IMG/VR virus record: IMGVR_UViG_2609459860_000002
Location: 1 to 8,929 of that record
Length of the DNA stretch: 8,929 nt
DNA from: a virus
Lineage: Duplodnaviria; Heunggongvirae; Uroviricota; Caudoviricetes
Direction: 5' to 3' (one strand)
Shown: piece by piece, positions 1,582-8,827 of the stretch
Position numbering within the stretch: the stretch's first letter is position 1
How the letters are laid out: each line of letters starts with the position of its first letter
Translations under genes and position numbers: made by a program
The notes under the pieces: generated by a model
Told to the model about the DNA's origin: nothing
Database searches by the model: none
The model's input: the letters and a program-made list of their open reading frames with translations, nothing else

Positions 1582-2032
1582 GTTTAAGCGTTTTGAAGAC
1601 CGGCTGACCGGACTGATTGAGTCGCTGTCACCGTCAGGGCGTCGGCGACTGGCGGTAGATATTGCGAAGAAGCTGCGCCAGCGCCAGCAGCAGCGAATTA
1701 AATTACAAAAAGCCCCGGATGGTACGCCGTATGTACCGAGAAAAAACCAACCAGTACGAAATAAGAAAGGCCGGATAAAGCGGGAAATGTTTGTGAAATT
1801 ACGCACTAACCGGTTTATGAAAGCAACAGGTAGCGAGAGTGCGGCGGTGGTGGCGTTTGCCAGCGGAGTACAACGAATTGCGCGAGTACATCAATTAGGG
1901 CTTAGGGATAAGCCGGGGCGTAATAGTGCTGTGGTGGAATATCCTGTTCGTGAGTTATTTGGTTTTGACAAGGAATCTATACAATTGATAGAAAGGGAGT
2001 TATTAGTGATTCTATCGAAAGATGTTATATGA
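1574..2032 (+). CDS. S: Tail completion protein S (P2 gpS family)
   Basis: 152-aa ORF whose N-terminus (MNEFKRFEDRLTGLIESLSPSGRRRL...) matches my memory of P2 gpS. The last 40 or so codons (from about 1900) lie in AT-rich DNA continuous with the downstream insertion. Its TGA (2030-2032) overlaps the ATG of the next gene (ATGA). Confidence 0.8.
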   Translation: MNEFKRFEDRLTGLIESLSPSGRRRLAVDIAKKLRQRQQQRIKLQKAPDGTPYVPRKNQPVRNKKGRIKREMFVKLRTNRFMKATGSESAAVVAFASGVQRIARVHQLGLRDKPGRNSAVVEYPVRELFGFDKESIQLIERELLVILSKDVI

Positions 2033-2784
2033 GACGGGTGTTTGTGGATAAAAAGTTTTCCATTTTGAGAAAAAGAGTAAAGCATTCTCAAAAGAAAGTT
2101 ATGGATTGTATTATTGCTGACCATAATGCTGATATATGTGTGTTATGCGGGAGTTCTGACGATATTACTCGTGAGCACATTATTCCTCAGTGGGCCTTTG
2201 AGTCAAATGCTGAAAAATCTTTAATTAATAAAAAGAATAATCAGTCAACTCATTACATTAAAGCTACTGTACCAGCATGCAGAGTGTGCAATTCTGATTT
2301 GCTGGGAGCGTTTGAGTATAACCTGAAGAAATTTCTTACGGAAAAGAGGGGCGATGAGTTAACAGATTATGAATATGACTGCATCATATGGTGGTTGCAA
2401 TACATGGGCTTTAAGTTGCAATTAATGGATTTACGGACCCGCTTTCTCAGGTATAAAGGGGGGGATTATATCCCTTTCCTTGCAAACTTCCCGGTTGCAA
2501 TGTTTTGGGGGAATGTCGATACGACACCGGAGGATGTCTTCAGGATTATAAGAAAATCGCGACGCAATCTGATGTCGAAATGGAAGGATAAAAAACATAA
2601 TTCTTTGATGGTTTTTGAAACATCAAACAAGAGTTTTCATTTCTTTCATAAGGTTGATGAATTTATTTTTATTGAAATGCCTCAGGTTAAGAAGGCGTTT
2701 TTCTTCTTTTTTAATAAAGAATTTGACAGCCATGATTTAGCTCATGAGGAGTGTATGAAGATTATAGAGAAGTGCTACAACTAA
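2029..2784 (+). CDS. Low-GC cargo ('moron') protein with an N-terminal HNH (beta-beta-alpha-Me) nuclease-like domain and an uncharacterised C-terminal region; function unknown
   Basis: 251-aa ORF, the only long ORF on either strand of the AT-rich island. HNH signature by direct reading: C37-x2-C40-G ... E49-H50-I-I-P ... C84-x2-C87-N (CVLCGSSDDITREHIIPQW...PACRVCNSD), i.e. two CxxC zinc knuckles flanking an E-H-I-I-P catalytic-histidine motif. Hand-counted GC is about 27-38% in 60-nt samples against about 58% in V. The start at 2029 is chosen for the ATGA overlap with S; an internal ATG at 2101 (M25) is an alternative start. Confidence 0.75.
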   Translation: MRRVFVDKKFSILRKRVKHSQKKVMDCIIADHNADICVLCGSSDDITREHIIPQWAFESNAEKSLINKKNNQSTHYIKATVPACRVCNSDLLGAFEYNLKKFLTEKRGDELTDYEYDCIIWWLQYMGFKLQLMDLRTRFLRYKGGDYIPFLANFPVAMFWGNVDTTPEDVFRIIRKSRRNLMSKWKDKKHNSLMVFETSNKSFHFFHKVDEFIFIEMPQVKKAFFFFFNKEFDSHDLAHEECMKIIEKCYN

Positions 2785-2861
2785 TATTTATTATGTTGTA
2801 TCACAGCTGACAGAATCCTCCATGATTGCTGCTGGTATCATCCAGCGGCATCCTTCCCGTT
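2785..2861 (+). promoter_or_regulatory. Candidate late promoter for the V-W-J-I-H transcription unit (P2 P_V-like, Ogr/Delta-activated class)
   Basis: A 77-bp intergenic gap directly upstream of V. It contains an imperfect dyad TGT(2794-2796)-N13-ACA(2810-2812), resembling the TGT-N12-ACA activator element of P2-type late promoters, and a TATCAT -10-like hexamer at 2836-2841. The spacing is one base off consensus and no transcript data exist, so this is weak. Confidence 0.25.
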
Positions 2862-3497
2862 ATGAACACTCTCGCAAATATTCAGGAACTCGCGCGCGCA
2901 CTGCGCAACATGATTCGTACCGGCCTTGTCGTCGAAACCGACCTTAACGCCAGTCGCTGCCGTGTGCAGACCGGCGGCATGTGCACCGACTGGCTTCAGT
3001 GGCTGACCCATCGCGCCGGGCGTTCGCGCACATGGTGGGCACCTTCCGTGGGGGAACAGGTGCTGATTCTGTCCGTGGGCGGCGAACTCGACACGGCGTT
3101 TGTTCTGCCGGGGATTTATTCCGGCGATAACCCTGCGCCGTCTGCGTCGGCTGATGCCCTGCATATCCGTTTCCCTGACGGGGCGGTGATTGAGTATGAA
3201 CCCGAAACCAGTGCACTCACGGTAAGCGGAATTAAAACGGCCAGCGTGACGGCTTCTGATTCTGTTACTGCCACGGTGCCGGTGGTCATGGTGAAAGCAT
3301 CAACCCGCGTCACTCTGGACACGCCGGAGGTGGTCTGCACAAACAAGCTGATCACCGGCACGCTGGAAGTGCAGAAGGGCGGGACGATGCGCGGCAACAT
3401 TGAACACACCGGCGGTGAACTCTCATCAAACGGGAAGGTACTGCATACCCATAAACACCCCGGCGACAGCGGCGGCACAACCGGGAGTCCTCTATGA
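2862..3497 (+). CDS. V: Baseplate central spike protein V (P2 gpV family)
   Basis: 211 aa from ATG 2862 (MNTLANIQELARALRNMIRTG...HTHKHPGDSGGTTGSPL), matching my memory of P2 gpV in sequence and length. The ORF-track start at 2826 is a TTG in the same frame and is probably not the true start. The stop overlaps the W start (ATGA). Confidence 0.9.
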   Translation: MNTLANIQELARALRNMIRTGLVVETDLNASRCRVQTGGMCTDWLQWLTHRAGRSRTWWAPSVGEQVLILSVGGELDTAFVLPGIYSGDNPAPSASADALHIRFPDGAVIEYEPETSALTVSGIKTASVTASDSVTATVPVVMVKASTRVTLDTPEVVCTNKLITGTLEVQKGGTMRGNIEHTGGELSSNGKVLHTHKHPGDSGGTTGSPL

Positions 3498-4754: not shown

Positions 4755-5358
4755 TTCGCGCCTGCTGCCGACCGGCTCATCACCGCTTGAAGTCGCCGCC
4801 GCAAAAGCCTGTGCGGAAATTGAAAAAACGCCGGTCAGTATTCGTGAGCTGTGGAACCCGGATACCTGTCCGGCAAATCTGCTGCCGTGGCTGGCGTGGT
4901 CATTTTCGGTTGACCGCTGGGATGATAAGTGGCCGGAAGCGACAAAACGCGCTGTTATCCGCGATGCGTATTTCATTCACTGCCATAAGGGCACTATTGG
5001 TGCGATTCGCCGTGTGGTGGAGCCGCTCGGATATCTGATTGAGGTGAGGGAGTGGTGGCAGCTCAACGAGGAGCCGGGGACGTTCCGCATCGTTGTTGGC
5101 GTGCTTGAGCAGGGTATTACCGAGGAAATGTATCAGGAGCTGGAGCGCCTCGTTGCTGATGCAAAACCGGCGAGCCGCCATCTGACGGGACTGGCTATCA
5201 GTTTAAGTACAACCGGCAACATTTTTGCCGGTGCGGGATGCTATCACGGTGACGCCCTGACGGTTTATCCCTACACCCCGGAGGCCATTATTGTCGGAGG
5301 GGATTATTTCCCGGCCTCGGCCATTCATTTAATTGATAACCTGAGAGTAAACGCATGA
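4747..5358 (+). CDS. I: Baseplate protein I (P2 gpI family)
   Basis: 203-aa ORF between J and H in conserved synteny, with an ATGA overlap onto the H start. It is somewhat longer than the P2 gpI length I remember (about 176 aa), so the start codon choice is uncertain. Confidence 0.8.
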   Translation: MSDSRLLPTGSSPLEVAAAKACAEIEKTPVSIRELWNPDTCPANLLPWLAWSFSVDRWDDKWPEATKRAVIRDAYFIHCHKGTIGAIRRVVEPLGYLIEVREWWQLNEEPGTFRIVVGVLEQGITEEMYQELERLVADAKPASRHLTGLAISLSTTGNIFAGAGCYHGDALTVYPYTPEAIIVGGDYFPASAIHLIDNLRVNA

Positions 5359-6635
5359 CAGTGAAATACTACGCCATTCTGACTAATCAGGGCGCAGCAC
5401 GGCTGGCTAACGCGACGATGCTCGGCAGTAAGCTGAATCTGACGCAAATGGCCGTTGGTGATGCGAATGGTATCTTGCCGACACCAGACCCGGCACAGAC
5501 AAAACTGATTAATCAGAAACGCATTGCACCGCTGAATCTTCTGAGTGTTGACCCGAACAACCAGAGCCAGATTATTGCGGAGCAAATCATCCCTGAGAAC
5601 GAGGGCGGATTCTGGATCCGTGAGATTGGGCTTTATGATGATGAAGGCGTACTCATTGCGGTGGCGAACTGCCCGGAAACGTACAAACCGCAGTTGCAGG
5701 AAGGCAGTGGTCGTACCCAGACTATCCGCATGATTCTGGTTGTCACGAATACCGAAGCTATCACGCTGAAAATCGACCCGTCGGTGGTACTGGCGACCCG
5801 TAAATACGTGGATGATGAAGTCCTGGAATTAAGGCTGTATGTGGATGACCAAATGAGAAACCATATTGCCGCACAGGATCCTCATACCCAGTATGCACAG
5901 AAACATAATCCGACATTTACCGGAGAACCAAAAGCGCCGACGCCTGCTGCAGGAAATAACACCACGCGGATTGCGACCACTGCGTTTGTTCAGGCGGCTA
6001 TTACCGCTCTGATTAACGGTGCGCCTGCCACGCTGGATACACTGAAAGAAATTGCCGCAGCCATTAACAATGACCCGAAATTCAGCACCACCATTAACAA
6101 TGCGCTGGCAGGTAAACAACCGCTGGACAATACGCTGACTCATTTGAGTGGAAAGGATGTTGCCGGTCTTCTCGCATACCTTGGTTTGGGAGAAGCGGCA
6201 AAACGAAATGTGGGCAACGGGGAAAACCAAATCCCTGATATGTCTTTCTGGACGGTTACTGGTGGCAATGGAAATTTTGTGATTCGTCAACCTGACGGGC
6301 TAATCATTCAGATGGTTACTGTAAGTATAAGCGGTCCAGTGGCGATGAATGGAATGACTGATAATGCTTATGCCATTACAGGTTCTAATAAGTCTTATAT
6401 TGCCACAGCCACATTGCCCTTTGTATTTCCTAATAAGGTGCTGGGCGTTATCCCTCTGGTATCAACAACAGCTTATGGTGGTGTATCCAGTAATATTACA
6501 GGTTCATACGCGACGGCGGTTTGTTCTTTTGCCGCTGTCAGGGGGAATAATACGATTGTGTTCAAAGTCGACAAACCACTGAATGCAGCCTTTCCTTCAG
6601 ATACCAGCGTCTCAGCGTTAATCATTGGACGGTAA
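5355..6635 (+). CDS. H: Tail fiber protein H: conserved N-terminal baseplate-attachment region fused to a variable C-terminal tip in the currently expressed orientation
   Basis: 426-aa ORF whose N-terminus (MTVKYYAILTNQGAARLANA...) is the conserved P2 gpH start. GC drops to about 42% after roughly nt 6200. The 26-bp crossover site at 6169-6194 lies in frame within codons for LLAYLGLGE, so residues after about 280 are encoded inside the invertible segment. Confidence 0.9.
   Translation: MTVKYYAILTNQGAARLANATMLGSKLNLTQMAVGDANGILPTPDPAQTKLINQKRIAPLNLLSVDPNNQSQIIAEQIIPENEGGFWIREIGLYDDEGVLIAVANCPETYKPQLQEGSGRTQTIRMILVVTNTEAITLKIDPSVVLATRKYVDDEVLELRLYVDDQMRNHIAAQDPHTQYAQKHNPTFTGEPKAPTPAAGNNTTRIATTAFVQAAITALINGAPATLDTLKEIAAAINNDPKFSTTINNALAGKQPLDNTLTHLSGKDVAGLLAYLGLGEAAKRNVGNGENQIPDMSFWTVTGGNGNFVIRQPDGLIIQMVTVSISGPVAMNGMTDNAYAITGSNKSYIATATLPFVFPNKVLGVIPLVSTTAYGGVSSNITGSYATAVCSFAAVRGNNTIVFKVDKPLNAAFPSDTSVSALIIGR
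6169..6194. repeat. Left crossover site of the invertible tail-fiber segment (gix/cix/pix-like, 26 bp), inside H
   Basis: TTCTCGCATACCTTGGTTTGGGAGAA. Its partner at 8153-8178, read as reverse complement (TTTTCATAAACGTTGGTTTGGGAGAA), matches at 21 of 26 positions including the last 14 consecutive bases. The two sites are therefore in inverted orientation, as inversion requires. Confidence 0.75.
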
Positions 6636-6637
6636 GA

Positions 6638-7081
6638 ATGAACTCAGTATTCTTTTCACCCGGAAGTAAAAGTTTTTATCTGCAAGAATTGTTTCCAGAA
6701 TATGAGGATGCGGGAACGCTTCCTGATGATGTTATTGAAATTACCAGAGAAACATATGAGCAATTTCTTGGGCTGCATCCAGAAGGGAAAGAAATTGGCG
6801 CTGACAGTTCAGGACGACCAGTATGGATTAATTCCCCACCGCCTTCAAAAGAGGATGAGGTGCTGGCGGCTGAAATGAAAAAAATATCTTTGGTTTCAGA
6901 AGTCAATACCTACATCAATACCCATCAGTGGCCTGGCAAAGCTGCTATTGGTCGTCTGAAAGGTGACGAGCTGGAACAATATAATTTATGGCTGGATTAT
7001 CTGGACGCACTGGAACTGGTTGATATCTCCAGCGCTCCAGATATTGAATGGCCTACGCCTCCGGCAGTTCAGGCCAGATGA
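6638..7081 (+). CDS. G: Tail fiber assembly protein (Tfa, P2 gpG-like), partner of the currently expressed fiber tip
   Basis: 147-aa ORF directly after H. Its C-terminus (...LVDISSAPDIEWPTPP...) is the conserved Tfa C-terminal motif, also present in the opposing tfa' (...TDTSTAPDVIWPELPEA). Confidence 0.8.
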   Translation: MNSVFFSPGSKSFYLQELFPEYEDAGTLPDDVIEITRETYEQFLGLHPEGKEIGADSSGRPVWINSPPPSKEDEVLAAEMKKISLVSEVNTYINTHQWPGKAAIGRLKGDELEQYNLWLDYLDALELVDISSAPDIEWPTPPAVQAR

Positions 7082-7655
7082 CGTCCGGCGCTGTGCTGGT
7101 ATCTGTTGCCGTCACCGCGTCAATATAATCCAGCACAGCGTTAAGTCGGGTGTTTTCTGTCTGCATCAGCTTCCGCCCGGCCTGCAATTTCAGTTGAATC
7201 AGACTAATGGAAGCCATTGCAGTATCAATCAGTGACTGACGCTGTGCTTCTGCCGCGCCTACTGCGGCGCTATGCTGTGCCTCAGTATCGGTCACCCATT
7301 TCTCACCATCCCATTTATCGTATGGCGTTAACGGGGCGATAGTGGTTGTATTTTCAGGATAATCACCCGGAGCTGTGATTTCTTTCGATTCTCCTGTTTC
7401 GGTGCTATAGATGATTTCACCGCGATGGTCTGGCACATATTCCCATGAGTTAAAATCTGCAGAACGGCAGATTGCATAACCAGCTTTATGTGTAACTGGT
7501 GTATCTAAACAAGAACATGCCGGGATACCGACGCCAACCGCAAGATATTCAGTTGATGTGGAAATATATTCCCGTGTTTCACCATCATAATTATAAATGG
7601 TAATGACTCCCGCTTTTATGGCAATGAGTTCGTTATTTAATACGGCTTTATTCAT
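7053..7655 (-). CDS. Alternate tail fiber assembly protein (Tfa'), cognate to the inverted fiber tip
   Basis: 200-aa ORF on the - strand with the Tfa-type C-terminal motif. Its 3' end overlaps the + strand tfa 3' end by 29 bp (7053-7081). Its ATG overlaps the stop of the upstream - strand fiber-tip segment (TGATG). Confidence 0.82.
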   Translation of the reverse strand: MNKAVLNNELIAIKAGVITIYNYDGETREYISTSTEYLAVGVGIPACSCLDTPVTHKAGYAICRSADFNSWEYVPDHRGEIIYSTETGESKEITAPGDYPENTTTIAPLTPYDKWDGEKWVTDTEAQHSAAVGAAEAQRQSLIDTAMASISLIQLKLQAGRKLMQTENTRLNAVLDYIDAVTATDTSTAPDVIWPELPEA

Positions 7656-7657
7656 CA

Positions 7658-8167
7658 GGCAGCCCTCACGATATAATTAAAGGCAATGTTACGAGGACGG
7701 TTTTCGTTTGCAGTTGGAACAATTCTTGAAGCATCAAGGCCAATCACTTTTGGGTAAACAGCGCCATCTGTTCTTTCTGTCACCATACTTCTGATTAAGG
7801 AGAAATAACTATTGTTCGTTGAGGGGTTCAAAGGCACCACTGCCCCCTTAAAAGAGCCTGCTGATTCCCATATTGAATAATTTTCGGTGTTTACAGTCTT
7901 GAACTCACCATAGATATTACGTATGGCATCGCCCTGAGCTGATAATATTGTTCTCCCCGCATCCGCACTACGCCCATCATCCCAGCCACGAATAAATTCA
8001 CCGCGTAAATCAGGCAATTTATTTGTCGGGTAAGCCTTTGCCAGTTCCGGGTATTCTTCAGCAGAAAAAGCTGCTCCGTTGCATTTCAGCCAGCCTGTTG
8101 GCGGAGTGGCTGAGGGCCACGGAACAGGCACCCCAACAGGTAATGCAGAGCCTTCTCCCAAACCAAC
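7658..8167 (-). CDS. Alternate tail-fiber C-terminal tip (H', promoterless and startless; expressed only after inversion fuses it to the H N-terminal region)
   Basis: The - strand frame is open through the right crossover site, encoding ...VGLGEGSALPVGVPVPWPSATPPTGWLKCNG...NIAFNYIVRAA. The ending NIAFNYIVR(L/A)A is the canonical C-terminus of P2 H / Mu S-type fibers as I recall them. The ORF-track Met codons at 8201-8206 lie beyond the crossover and are not a real start. Confidence 0.82.
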
Positions 8168-8178
8168 GTTTATGAAAA
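8153..8178. repeat. Right crossover site of the invertible segment (26 bp)
   Basis: TTCTCCCAAACCAACGTTTATGAAAA, located about 55 bp upstream of the invertase start. Its left half-site TTCTCCCAAACC is the reverse complement of the right half-site of the 6169-6194 site. It closely resembles cix/gix-type sites from memory. Confidence 0.75.
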
Positions 8179-8233
8179 TGCAGAGATAACGGCTAACTGG
8201 CATCATCTCCGGTTTTTATTCAGGGGATCCATC

Positions 8234-8827
8234 ATGCTTATTGGCTATGTCCGCGTATCAACAAATGACCAGAACACGGAATTGCAGCGTAACGCGCTGG
8301 AATGCGCGGGATGTGAGCGGATTTTTGAGGACAAAATCAGCGGCACGAAGTCCGACAGGCCGGGACTGAAAAAACTGCTCAGGACATTATCGGATGGGGA
8401 TACACTGGTAGTCTGGAAGCTGGACCGGCTGGGGCGTAGTATGCGGCATCTGGTCATTCTAGTTGAGGAACTGCGCGAACGTGGCATTAATTTTCGCAGC
8501 CTGACGGATGCTATTGATACCAGCACGCCGATGGGGCGTTTTTTCTTTCATGTGATGGGTGCCCTGGCTGAAATGGAGCGAGAACTCATTGTCGAGCGGA
8601 CACGCGCCGGACTGGAAGCGGCCAGAGCCAAAGGTCGTATTGGTGGCAGACGTCCGAAACTCACCGCGAGTGAGTGGGAGCAGGTCGGACGGTTGCTGGC
8701 TGCGGGGGAATCTCGTCAACGCGTGGCGCTGATTTTTGATATTGGCCTGTCCACGCTCTATAAAAAATTCCCCTCATCAGCGACAAAGAATAAATTGTGT
8801 CATCCCTTAGCCAACCGGGACAAATAG
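8234..8827 (+). CDS. Serine DNA invertase, Gin/Pin/Cin/Hin family
   Basis: 197-aa ORF beginning MLIGYVRVSTNDQNT..., with the catalytic Ser at residue 9 (TCA, 8258-8260). It carries conserved invertase blocks (GDTLVVWKLDRLGRSM, GINFRSLTD, MGRFFFHVMGALAEMERELI, RIGGRRPKLT) and a C-terminal helix-turn-helix region (...RVALIFDIGLSTLYKK). An AGGGGA Shine-Dalgarno lies upstream. I cannot tell from sequence alone which named invertase it is closest to. Confidence 0.92.
   Translation: MLIGYVRVSTNDQNTELQRNALECAGCERIFEDKISGTKSDRPGLKKLLRTLSDGDTLVVWKLDRLGRSMRHLVILVEELRERGINFRSLTDAIDTSTPMGRFFFHVMGALAEMERELIVERTRAGLEAARAKGRIGGRRPKLTASEWEQVGRLLAAGESRQRVALIFDIGLSTLYKKFPSSATKNKLCHPLANRDK

What the first reader, a model, noticed from the sequence alone, without database searches (positions are those of the whole stretch)
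5355..8167. The two alternative fiber tips belong to different families; the currently expressed one is the non-canonical tip
The - strand tip (7658-8167) has the canonical P2 H / Mu S-type tip (PWPSATPPTGWLKCNG ... NIAFNYIVRAA). The tip now fused to H on the + strand (about residues 281-426, ...NGNFVIRQPDGLIIQMVTVSISG...SALIIGR) is shorter, lower in GC (about 42%) and lacks that C-terminal signature. The two Tfa proteins share only their C-terminal motif (SAPDIEWPTPP versus TAPDVIWPELP). This suggests the segment pairs two tip/chaperone cassettes of distinct origin, and that in this orientation the prophage presents the unusual tip.
Basis: seen in the sequence. Interest (0 to 1): 0.45.

Follow-up and report, generated by a model that had tools for sequence, protein, structure and literature searches.

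The report
Invertible phage tail-fibre tip switch
This is an ordinary Mu/P1/e14-style DNA-inversion switch in a P2-like E. coli prophage that swaps two unrelated but already known types of tail-fibre tip; the same module is present in about 4% of complete E. coli genomes.

Summary
The sequence facts hold. The tail-fibre gene H (5355-6635) is crossed at codons 272-280 by one of two 26-bp inverted crossover sites (6169-6194, 8153-8178). A Gin-like invertase gene (8234-8827, 80% identical to Mu Gin) lies just outside. In this orientation H ends in a 146-aa tip A followed by TfaA. A simulated inversion gives an intact 445-aa H ending in the 165-aa tip B followed by TfaB.

Tip B is a T4 gp37/gp12/lambda Stf/e14 "collar" tip and shows no similarity to the P2 H or Mu S/S' tips. 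Tip A is not an orphan. It is a divergent member of the gp53-like (PF21882) jelly-roll lectin knob family, which includes the AP22 gp53 and R-pyocin fibre "foot" domains.

The same pairing exists in the published phage pro483. The whole four-gene module occurs in 219 of 5426 complete E. coli genomes, in both orientations and in both P2-like and Mu-like prophages.

The two Tfa proteins share an 80-residue C-terminal domain. That fits the known TFA layout: a variable N-terminal domain that binds the fibre and a conserved C-terminal domain.

Verdict: real, well explained, a new member of a known kind, low interest.

The parts
5355..6168 (+). Constant N-terminal part of tail-fibre gene H (about residues 1-271), attached to the baseplate
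   Evidence: PF12571 Phage_tail_fib, E=4e-62 over residues 1-150. 42% identical to the P2 H N-terminal part. 95% DNA identity to pro483 ORF31.
6169..6194 (+). Left crossover site TTCTCGCATACC-TT-GGTTTGGGAGAA, inside H codons 272-280 (LLAYLGLGE)
   Evidence: Inverted repeat I1 and sequence. Pattern search gave 2 hits against 0.01 expected. The colinear block shared with L002 starts at 6178. Resembles Mu gixL TTATCCAAAACCTCGGTTTACAGGAA.
6195..6635 (+). Tip A: 146-aa gp53-like / R-pyocin-foot-type jelly-roll knob, currently fused to H (residues 281-426)
   Evidence: PF21882 at 24.4 bits against a cut-off of 24.9, and all 7 relatives match. Family profile against PDB: 4mtm E=1.2e-9, 6cxb E=2.3e-6. 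Foldseek top five are 6ct8, 4mtm, 6cxb, 6cl5 and 6cl6. phrog_12714 E=1.5e-47.
6638..7081 (+). TfaA: tail-fibre assembly chaperone cognate to tip A (147 aa)
   Evidence: PF02413 Caudo_TAP E=7.6e-28; phrog_188. The N-terminal two thirds are swapped together with tip A relative to pro483; only 6926-7081 is conserved.
7053..7655 (-). TfaB: chaperone cognate to tip B (200 aa, e14 TfaE-like); silent in this orientation
   Evidence: PF02413 E=6.6e-31; phrog_105 E=1.9e-96. Matching regions in E. coli genomes are annotated tfaE.
7658..8152 (-). Tip B: 165-aa collar-type tip (T4 gp37/gp12, lambda Stf, e14 StfE type), promoterless in this orientation
   Evidence: PF07484 Collar E=8e-16. PDB 9cuy E=1.4e-25 and 2xgf (T4 gp37) E=3.7e-17, including the NIAFNYIVR ending. 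1048 phage records hold a match. The simulated inversion fuses it in frame to give a 445-aa H.
8153..8178 (-). Right crossover site (read on the - strand: TTTTCATAAACG-TT-GGTTTGGGAGAA)
   Evidence: The colinear block shared with L002 ends at 8166.
8234..8827 (+). Serine DNA invertase of the Gin/Cin/Pin/Hin family, outside the invertible segment
   Evidence: PF00239 + PF02796. PDB Gin 3uj3 E=2.9e-94. 80% identical to Mu Gin over 181 aa, with the N-terminal YVRVSTNDQ motif that holds the serine conserved.

Best explanation
A Gin/Pin-family serine invertase (8234-8827) flips the 1,984-bp segment between two 26-bp inverted crossover sites that lie inside the tail-fibre gene H.

Transcription and translation enter from the constant part of H (residues 1-280, ending ...YLGLGE). 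Whichever tip lies downstream on the + strand is therefore made, together with the chaperone gene directly behind it.
- In the present orientation the fibre ends in tip A, a small gp53-like/R-pyocin-foot-type jelly-roll lectin knob, folded with TfaA.
- After inversion the fibre ends in tip B, a T4 gp37/gp12-type collar tip, folded with the e14-TfaE-like TfaB.

A lysogen population would thus release two virion types with different receptor specificities, as in the host-range switching of Mu G, P1 C and e14 P.

Shown here: the anatomy, in-frame fusion in both states, the family assignment of both tips, and natural occurrence of both orientations.

Inferred: activity of this particular invertase, dependence on Fis and an enhancer, and the identity of the receptors. 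These are probably surface polysaccharide or LPS, by analogy with the lectin-fold relatives.
For: Anatomy:
- ORFs and Pfam hits.
- Exactly two crossover sites, against 0.01 expected by chance.
- Invertase 80% identical to Mu Gin.

Both states are readable:
- H is open through site L to tip A.
- The simulated inversion gives an intact 445-aa H::tip B.

Inversion happens in nature:
- In E. coli 22AR0118 the block 6178-8166 is 98.7% identical but inverted relative to H and the invertase. There the collar tip is fused to H and tip A is a 163-aa 'hypothetical protein'.
- H::knob junctions occur in 375 complete E. coli genomes and H::collar junctions in 543.

Tip families:
- Tip B: Collar, T4 gp37, gp12.
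- Tip A: PF21882, 4mtm, R-pyocin foot. PMC6363177 describes the foot as a jelly-roll lectin fold and says the T4 and AP22 fibre structures show no evident similarity.

Chaperone logic:
- The Tfa N-terminal parts differ and the C-terminal 80 residues are shared.
- This matches the published TFA design: a variable N-terminal domain binds the fibre and a conserved C-terminal domain trimerises (PMC9608196, citing North et al. 2019).
- Relative to pro483, tip A and the TfaA N-terminal part are replaced as one unit.
Against: - No direct evidence that this copy inverts: a single assembled sequence shows one state only.
- The tip A model is of modest confidence (mean pLDDT 60.6, 8-sequence alignment, monomer).
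- Tip A on its own falls 0.5 bit below Pfam's gathering score.
- The enhancer was not tested beyond 85% DNA identity to the 5' end of Mu gin.
- The receptors are unknown.
Confidence: 0.88

Rival explanations
1. The switch is a frozen relic. The segment no longer inverts in this prophage, and tip A is simply the fixed fibre tip. The - strand tip B and TfaB would then be silent leftovers.
For: In the Mu-like prophage that carries the same module, the invertase is cut to a 42-aa fragment or the region is interrupted by an IS66 element. That copy is locked with tip A expressed. Nothing in the window shows activity directly.
Against: - The invertase here is full length (197 aa), 80% identical to Gin, with the catalytic-serine motif.
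- Both sites are intact with identical inner halves and the same TT core.
- Tip B and TfaB are uninterrupted ORFs.
- A near-identical module is found in the opposite orientation elsewhere.
Confidence: 0.08
2. The two tips are distant homologues whose apparent difference comes from a frameshift or assembly error in the + strand tip.
For: None found.
Against: - BLASTP between the tips gives E=0.7.
- They hit disjoint Pfam, PHROG and PDB families.
- The identical tip A protein recurs in hundreds of independent assemblies.
- Its C-terminus aligns with the terminus of its family.
Confidence: 0.01
3. Tip A is a new kind of receptor-binding domain that only superficially resembles gp53-like knobs. 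It would be a genuinely 'non-canonical' tip with a novel fold in its inserted regions.
For: - Tip A carries two insertions relative to its relatives, and these are the low-confidence parts of the model.
- Only 31 representative clusters among 1.84 billion proteins match it directly.
- It has only weak hits in 7 phage records.
- It is 0.5 bit below the Pfam cut-off.
Against: - The conserved core aligns throughout with PF21882 members: GxGxNQIPDM ... LPxGLIIQ ... FPxxFPN ... AIG.
- The family profile hits 4mtm at E=1.2e-9.
- The model's five best structural matches are all pyocin-foot or gp53 structures.
Confidence: 0.03

Closest known systems
Escherichia phage pro483 (Peduovirus, NC_028943) tail-fibre inversion region, ORF31-ORF35
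   Same: Same gene order: H, tfa, tfa (-), collar tip (-), invertase. The H constant part is 95% identical, the invertase and collar side 95%, and TfaB 89%. Its expressed tip also starts GLGEAAKRDVGTGENQIPDM... and is therefore also of the gp53-like type.
   Different: The core of tip A and the N-terminal two thirds of TfaA (6243-6925), and the central part of tip B (7682-7960), are replaced by unrelated sequence.
Phage Mu G segment (gin, gix, S/U against S'/U')
   Same: Invertase 80% identical. 26-bp sites lie inside the fibre gene at a ...LGL(Q/G)E... junction. Two convergent tip+tfa cassettes, with the invertase just outside the segment. The Mu Sv and Sv' tips are also essentially unrelated beyond the first ~75 residues.
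   Different: The Mu tips are of other families: tip B against S or S' gives E>1. The core dinucleotide is TC/GA in gix and TT/AA here. The G segment is about 3 kb; this one is 2.0 kb.
e14 P segment of E. coli K-12 (pinE, stfE/tfaE, tfaP)
   Same: The TfaB/tip B half (from the TfaA C-terminal part onwards) is about 90% identical in DNA to the e14-type tfaE region of K-12-lineage genomes (rows H169, H170).
   Different: The e14-type regions lack tip A and the TfaA N-terminal part: only about 50% of the segment is covered.
R1/R2 pyocin fibre foot domain and Acinetobacter phage AP22 gp53 (PDB 6cxb, 6cl5, 6ct8, 4mtm; Pfam PF21882)
   Same: Tip A shares the jelly-roll knob core by family profile (E=1.2e-9 and 2.3e-6) and by model comparison. 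It likewise needs a downstream TFA-type chaperone (PMC6363177).
   Different: Only 16-19% identity to the solved structures. The largest insertion (about 24 against about 8 residues) maps to the position of distal loop L1 of the R1 foot. This is my inference and Table 2 of PMC6363177.
T4 gp37 collar / gp12 / lambda Stf tips (Pfam PF07484)
   Same: Tip B matches the gp37 collar at both ends, residues 2-78 and the C-terminal ENRPRNIAFNYIVRAA.
   Different: The long needle and head of gp37 are replaced by a roughly 70-residue insert. That insert is also the part that differs between otherwise similar modules.

Membership tests
Gin/Cin/Pin/Hin (Din) tail-fibre inversion systems | Small serine recombinase with an N-terminal catalytic serine and a C-terminal HTH, closely related to Gin/Cin/Pin/Hin | tested here: met
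   PF00239 + PF02796. 80% identical to Mu Gin, with MLIGYVRVSTNDQ conserved. PDB 3uj3 E=2.9e-94.
Gin/Cin/Pin/Hin (Din) tail-fibre inversion systems | Two 26-bp crossover sites in inverted orientation with the same central dinucleotide | tested here: met
   Sites at 6169-6194 and 8153-8178. Inner halves are identical and the core is TT in both. 2 matches against 0.01 expected.
Gin/Cin/Pin/Hin (Din) tail-fibre inversion systems | A crossover site inside the fibre gene, so that inversion exchanges the C-terminal part in frame, each tip being followed by its own tfa | tested here: met
   H is open in the present state (426 aa) and in the simulated inverted state (445 aa). Tfa genes lie directly downstream of each tip.
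Gin/Cin/Pin/Hin (Din) tail-fibre inversion systems | Both orientations occur | tested here: met
   Across genomes only. In L002 the block 6178-8166 is 98.7% identical and inverted relative to its flanks. Both junction types are common. Not testable within this strain from a single sequence.
Gin/Cin/Pin/Hin (Din) tail-fibre inversion systems | Fis-dependent recombinational enhancer in the 5' part of the invertase gene | tested here: inconclusive
   The 5' 196 bases are 85% identical to Mu gin. No Fis-site analysis or functional test was done.
Gp53-like_C (Pfam PF21882) / R-pyocin foot jelly-roll tips (for tip A) | Score at or above Pfam's gathering score (24.9 bits) | tested here: inconclusive
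   Tip A alone scores 24.4 bits, E=4.2e-5, just below the cut-off. Within full-length H it scores 19.5 bits. All 7 aligned relatives match, best E=1.2e-19. The top 120 of 2573 profile hits all carry PF21882.
Gp53-like_C (Pfam PF21882) / R-pyocin foot jelly-roll tips (for tip A) | Homology to, and fold of, the solved members (4mtm, 6cxb, 6cl5) | tested here: met
   Profile A1 against PDB: 4mtm E=1.2e-9, 6cxb 2.3e-6, 6cl5 1.1e-5. Foldseek top five are these structures, probability 1.00, TM-score 0.40-0.52 normalised to the query, using a model with mean pLDDT 60.6.
Gp53-like_C (Pfam PF21882) / R-pyocin foot jelly-roll tips (for tip A) | Trimeric knob that binds surface polysaccharide through its distal loops | not testable with these tools
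   Only a monomer model was made. Binding needs an experiment.
Phage tail collar tips (Pfam PF07484; T4 gp37/gp12 type) (for tip B) | Collar domain above the gathering score, and similarity to the gp37/gp12 collar including the C-terminal return strand | tested here: met
   58.2 bits against a cut-off of 24. 2xgf E=3.7e-17 with both the N-terminal and C-terminal segments aligned; 9cuy E=1.4e-25 over residues 4-163.
   BLASTP E=1.3, 2.4 and 1.2 respectively.
Caudo_TAP tail-fibre assembly proteins (TfaA, TfaB) | PF02413 above cut-off, with a variable N-terminal and a conserved C-terminal domain | tested here: met
   97.7 and 107.6 bits against a cut-off of 22.1. Only the C-terminal 80 residues are shared. 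Layout as described in PMC9608196.

The most novel reading that the evidence does not exclude
Tip A would define a distinct sub-branch of the gp53-like knobs. It has a roughly three-fold enlarged distal loop, only 31 representative clusters match it directly among 1.84 billion proteins, and sources name it 'hypothetical protein'. On this reading it recognises an E. coli surface receptor that no characterised fibre uses. The whole inversion module would be exchanged as a unit between P2-like and Mu-like prophages exactly at the invertase crossover sites. That would make the sites work as cassette-exchange points as well as inversion points.
Probability: 0.15. Interest if true: 0.4.

Novelty: new member of a known kind. 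Interest (0 to 1): 0.15.

Why it matters
The practical value is small.
- It gives a name and a fold (gp53-like / pyocin-foot lectin knob) to a tip that sources mostly call 'hypothetical protein' in the roughly 240 complete E. coli genomes that carry it.
- It corrects the assumption that the collar tip is 'P2 H/Mu S-type'.
- It documents a ready-made pair of tip+chaperone cassettes that could be used to retarget P2-like phages or tailocins.

Conceptually it adds nothing to the established picture of host-range switching by Gin/Pin-type inversion or of mosaic tail-fibre evolution.

Tried and rejected
- Direct sequence search of tip A against PDB found nothing meaningful (best E=1.5). Only the family profile reached 4mtm and the pyocin fibres.
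- DNA search of tip A + TfaA in the phage collection matched only the last 156 bases, the TfaA C-terminal part. tblastn of tip A found only 7 weak phage records.
- The first homologue search returned almost only copies at 98% identity or more, useless for an alignment. The representative search supplied the diverse relatives, some of which look garbled (P0128, P0129, P0135) and were left out of the alignment.
- PDB sequence searches with TfaA and TfaB gave no significant hit. NCBIfam has no model for either tip or either Tfa.
- A search for further crossover sites, which would indicate a multi-segment shufflon like Min of p15B, found none.
- Promoter and terminator scans were uninformative: promoter-like sites were at the chance level.
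- The reading 'tip B = P2 H/Mu S type' was rejected.
- The reading 'GC marks tip A as foreign relative to tip B' was rejected. Both tips and both Tfa N-terminal parts are low in GC (41-47%), while the Tfa C-terminal parts are 51-56%.
- The second structure prediction and the remaining fold searches were not used, because profile and fold evidence already agreed.
Full report
**What is there**

The window is the late region of a P2-like (Peduovirus) prophage of E. coli. It holds lysis genes, tail-completion genes, baseplate genes V, W, J and I, the fibre gene H, and then an inversion module.

H (5355-6635, 426 aa) starts with the Phage_tail_fib domain (PF12571, E=4e-62). Its N-terminal part is 42% identical to that of P2 H.

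A 27-nt inverted repeat lies at 6169-6195 and 8152-8178. Read as 26-bp sites, the two copies are:
- left: TTCTCGCATACC-TT-GGTTTGGGAGAA
- right, on the - strand: TTTTCATAAACG-TT-GGTTTGGGAGAA

The inner halves and the central TT are identical, and the outer halves differ. A degenerate search finds exactly these two copies, against 0.01 expected by chance. So this is a simple two-state switch, not a multi-site shufflon.

The left site encodes H residues 272-280 (...LLAYLGLGE). Just outside the right site lies a 197-aa serine recombinase (8234-8827). It is 80% identical to Mu Gin, with the MLIGYVRVSTNDQ motif. The sites resemble Mu gixL, TTATCCAAAACCTCGGTTTACAGGAA.

**Contents of the segment**

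Four convergent genes lie between the sites:
- tip A (6195-6635, +, 146 aa after GLGE)
- TfaA (6638-7081, +)
- TfaB (7053-7655, -)
- tip B (7658-8152, -, 165 aa after GLGE)

Inverting the segment in silico between the central dinucleotides gives an uninterrupted 445-aa H ending in tip B. Both states are therefore readable. In the given orientation tip A and TfaA are the expressed pair.

**Checking the observation**

The quoted sequences and coordinates are right. The tips show no similarity (BLASTP E=0.7). Three details need correcting.

1. Tip B has no similarity to the tips of P2 H, Mu S or Mu S' (E=1.3, 2.4 and 1.2).
   - It carries the tail-collar domain (PF07484, E=8e-16).
   - It matches the T4 gp37 collar at both its N-terminal part and its NIAFNYIVR ending (2xgf, E=3.7e-17).
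   - It matches a short tail fibre over its whole length (9cuy, E=1.4e-25) and T4 gp12.
   - 1048 phage records hold relatives, among them lambda Stf and T-even long and short fibres.
2. The GC contrast between the tips is marginal: 44.7% against 47.3%. Both tips and both Tfa N-terminal parts are low (41-47%) against a 58% backbone. The Tfa C-terminal parts are 51-56%.
3. The Tfa proteins share 33% identity over their C-terminal 80 residues (E=7e-10), not just a terminal motif.

**What tip A is**

Tip A is not an orphan.
- On its own it hits Pfam Gp53-like_C (PF21882) at 24.4 bits, against a cut-off of 24.9. It also hits PHROG 12714 at E=1.5e-47, and tail-fibre PHROGs more weakly.
- A search of 1.84 billion representatives gave only 31 clusters at E<=0.001.
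- The intact members of those clusters align with tip A throughout a conserved core: GLGEAAKRxVGxGxNQIPDM ... LPxGLIIQ ... FPxxFPN ... AIG[YDW] at the C-terminus. All seven aligned relatives match PF21882, best E=1.2e-19.
- The profile of that alignment hits solved fibres: AP22 gp53 (4mtm, E=1.2e-9) and the R1 pyocin fibre (6cxb, 2.3e-6; 6cl5, 1.1e-5).
- An AlphaFold2 model is all-beta with mean pLDDT 60.6, so only moderately reliable. Its five best Foldseek matches are exactly the R2/R1 pyocin fibres and 4mtm. Further down come the phi297 tailspike and Helix pomatia agglutinin.
- PMC6363177 lists that same set as sharing the jelly-roll lectin fold of the pyocin 'foot'.
- A profile search of 5.8 billion proteins returned 2573 hits at E<=1e-5. 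The top 120 all carry PF21882, and many are named 'gp53-like domain-containing protein'.

Tip A differs from its relatives by two insertions, which coincide with low-confidence parts of the model. The larger insertion sits where distal loop L1 lies in the R1 foot. That placement is my inference and Table 2 of PMC6363177.

Tip A's C-terminus aligns with the family terminus, and the identical protein recurs in hundreds of assemblies. A frameshift or assembly error is therefore excluded.

**The pairing is not special**

- PMC6363177 notes that the T4 gp37 tip and AP22 gp53 show no evident similarity in sequence or tertiary structure. This segment simply carries one tip of each kind.
- Phage pro483 has the same architecture: a different gp53-like tip fused to a 95%-identical H constant part, with a collar tip on the other strand.
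- Mu's own Sv and Sv' are also essentially unrelated beyond about 75 residues.
- The complete module (80% or more of 6182-8165) is in 219 of 5426 complete E. coli genomes. The tip A cassette is in 244.
- The TfaB/tip B half is far more widespread. In K-12-lineage genomes it corresponds to the e14-type tfaE region at about 90% identity.
- The same four-gene module, 94% identical over 6170-7700, also sits behind a Mu-type baseplate. There tip A is fused to a different 100-residue constant part through the same LGLGE junction (P0030, 247 aa).
- Other constant parts joined to the identical tip are seen in P0121 and P0122.

**Evidence for inversion and for modular exchange**

In E. coli 22AR0118 the block 6178-8166 is 98.7% identical but inverted relative to H and the invertase. 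Those flanks are only 84% identical to the window's. In that genome the collar tip is fused to H and tip A is annotated as a 163-aa hypothetical protein. The block boundaries coincide with the crossover sites.

Junction queries show H::knob-type junctions in 375 complete genomes and H::collar junctions in 543. The knob junction query also picks up other gp53-like tips, because their first 20 or so codons are conserved.

Relative to pro483, the replaced units are 6243-6925 (the tip A core plus the TfaA N-terminal part) and 7682-7960 (the central insert of tip B). The first replacement fits the published TFA design: a variable N-terminal domain binds the fibre tip and a conserved C-terminal helical domain drives trimerisation (PMC9608196, citing North et al. 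2019). This also explains why the two Tfa proteins share only their C-terminal domains.

**Mechanism and confidence**

This is a Gin/Pin-type inversion switch. It alternates two fibre tips of unrelated fold, each with its own chaperone, and so gives two virion host ranges from one prophage (confidence about 0.88).

The anatomy, the reading frames, the family assignments and the natural occurrence of both orientations are shown. Activity of this copy, the enhancer and the receptors are inferred.

**Verdict**

The tips do differ in family and tip A is the expressed one. However, 'canonical/non-canonical' and 'P2 H/Mu S-type' are wrong, and the pairing is a common conserved module. It is a new member of a known kind, of low interest.

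Noticed in passing
window 2029-2784 (+): A 251-aa ORF lies in a sharply low-GC island (36% against a 58% backbone) between the virion-morphogenesis gene (1574-2032) and baseplate gene V (2826-3497), which looks like a moron inserted in the late operon. It matches PHROG 10503 (unknown function) end to end at E=3e-181. It has only a sub-threshold HNH_5 hit and no PADLOC or NCBIfam match.
   Followed up: partly
window 7053-7081: The two convergent tfa genes overlap by 29 nt at their 3' ends. The conserved C-terminal motifs (APDIEWPTPP and APDVIWPELP) are therefore encoded close together on opposite strands. Short imperfect inverted repeats (6991-7008/7117-7134 and 7089-7111/7118-7140) reflect this.
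   Followed up: no
L006-L008, about 6001-8413 (Mu-type baseplate prophage of E. coli): The same inversion module sits in a prophage with a Mu-like tail. There the invertase is reduced to a 42-aa fragment next to a GmrSD gene (L007). In L008 no invertase gene is called at all, though the same DNA matches. In L006 the collar tip is displaced by an IS66 element. This copy is locked with tip A fused to a 247-aa fibre (P0030). That protein is indexed in 767 blocks of the collection.
   Followed up: partly
window 6178-8166 against L002 8983-10971: The invertible block is 98.7% identical between two P2-like prophages whose flanking H constant part and invertase are only 84% identical. The identity step falls at the crossover sites. 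This suggests that whole modules are exchanged at or near the sites.
   Followed up: partly
window 7682-7960 (-), central part of tip B: Between otherwise 89-95% identical modules (pro483, and L007 and L008 of the Mu-like prophage loci), only the stretch between the N-terminal collar part and the C-terminal return strand of tip B is replaced. This insert is probably the specificity-determining head of the collar-type tip.
   Followed up: no
L005 (P2 H) and L004 (Mu S): P2 H, which is not invertible, contains ...IEYLGLQETVNRAGNAVQKNGDTLSGG..., matching the Mu S sequence at the gix junction (...IQNLGLQETVNRARNAVQKNGDTL...). This is a relic of a crossover-site junction inside a fixed fibre gene.
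   Followed up: no
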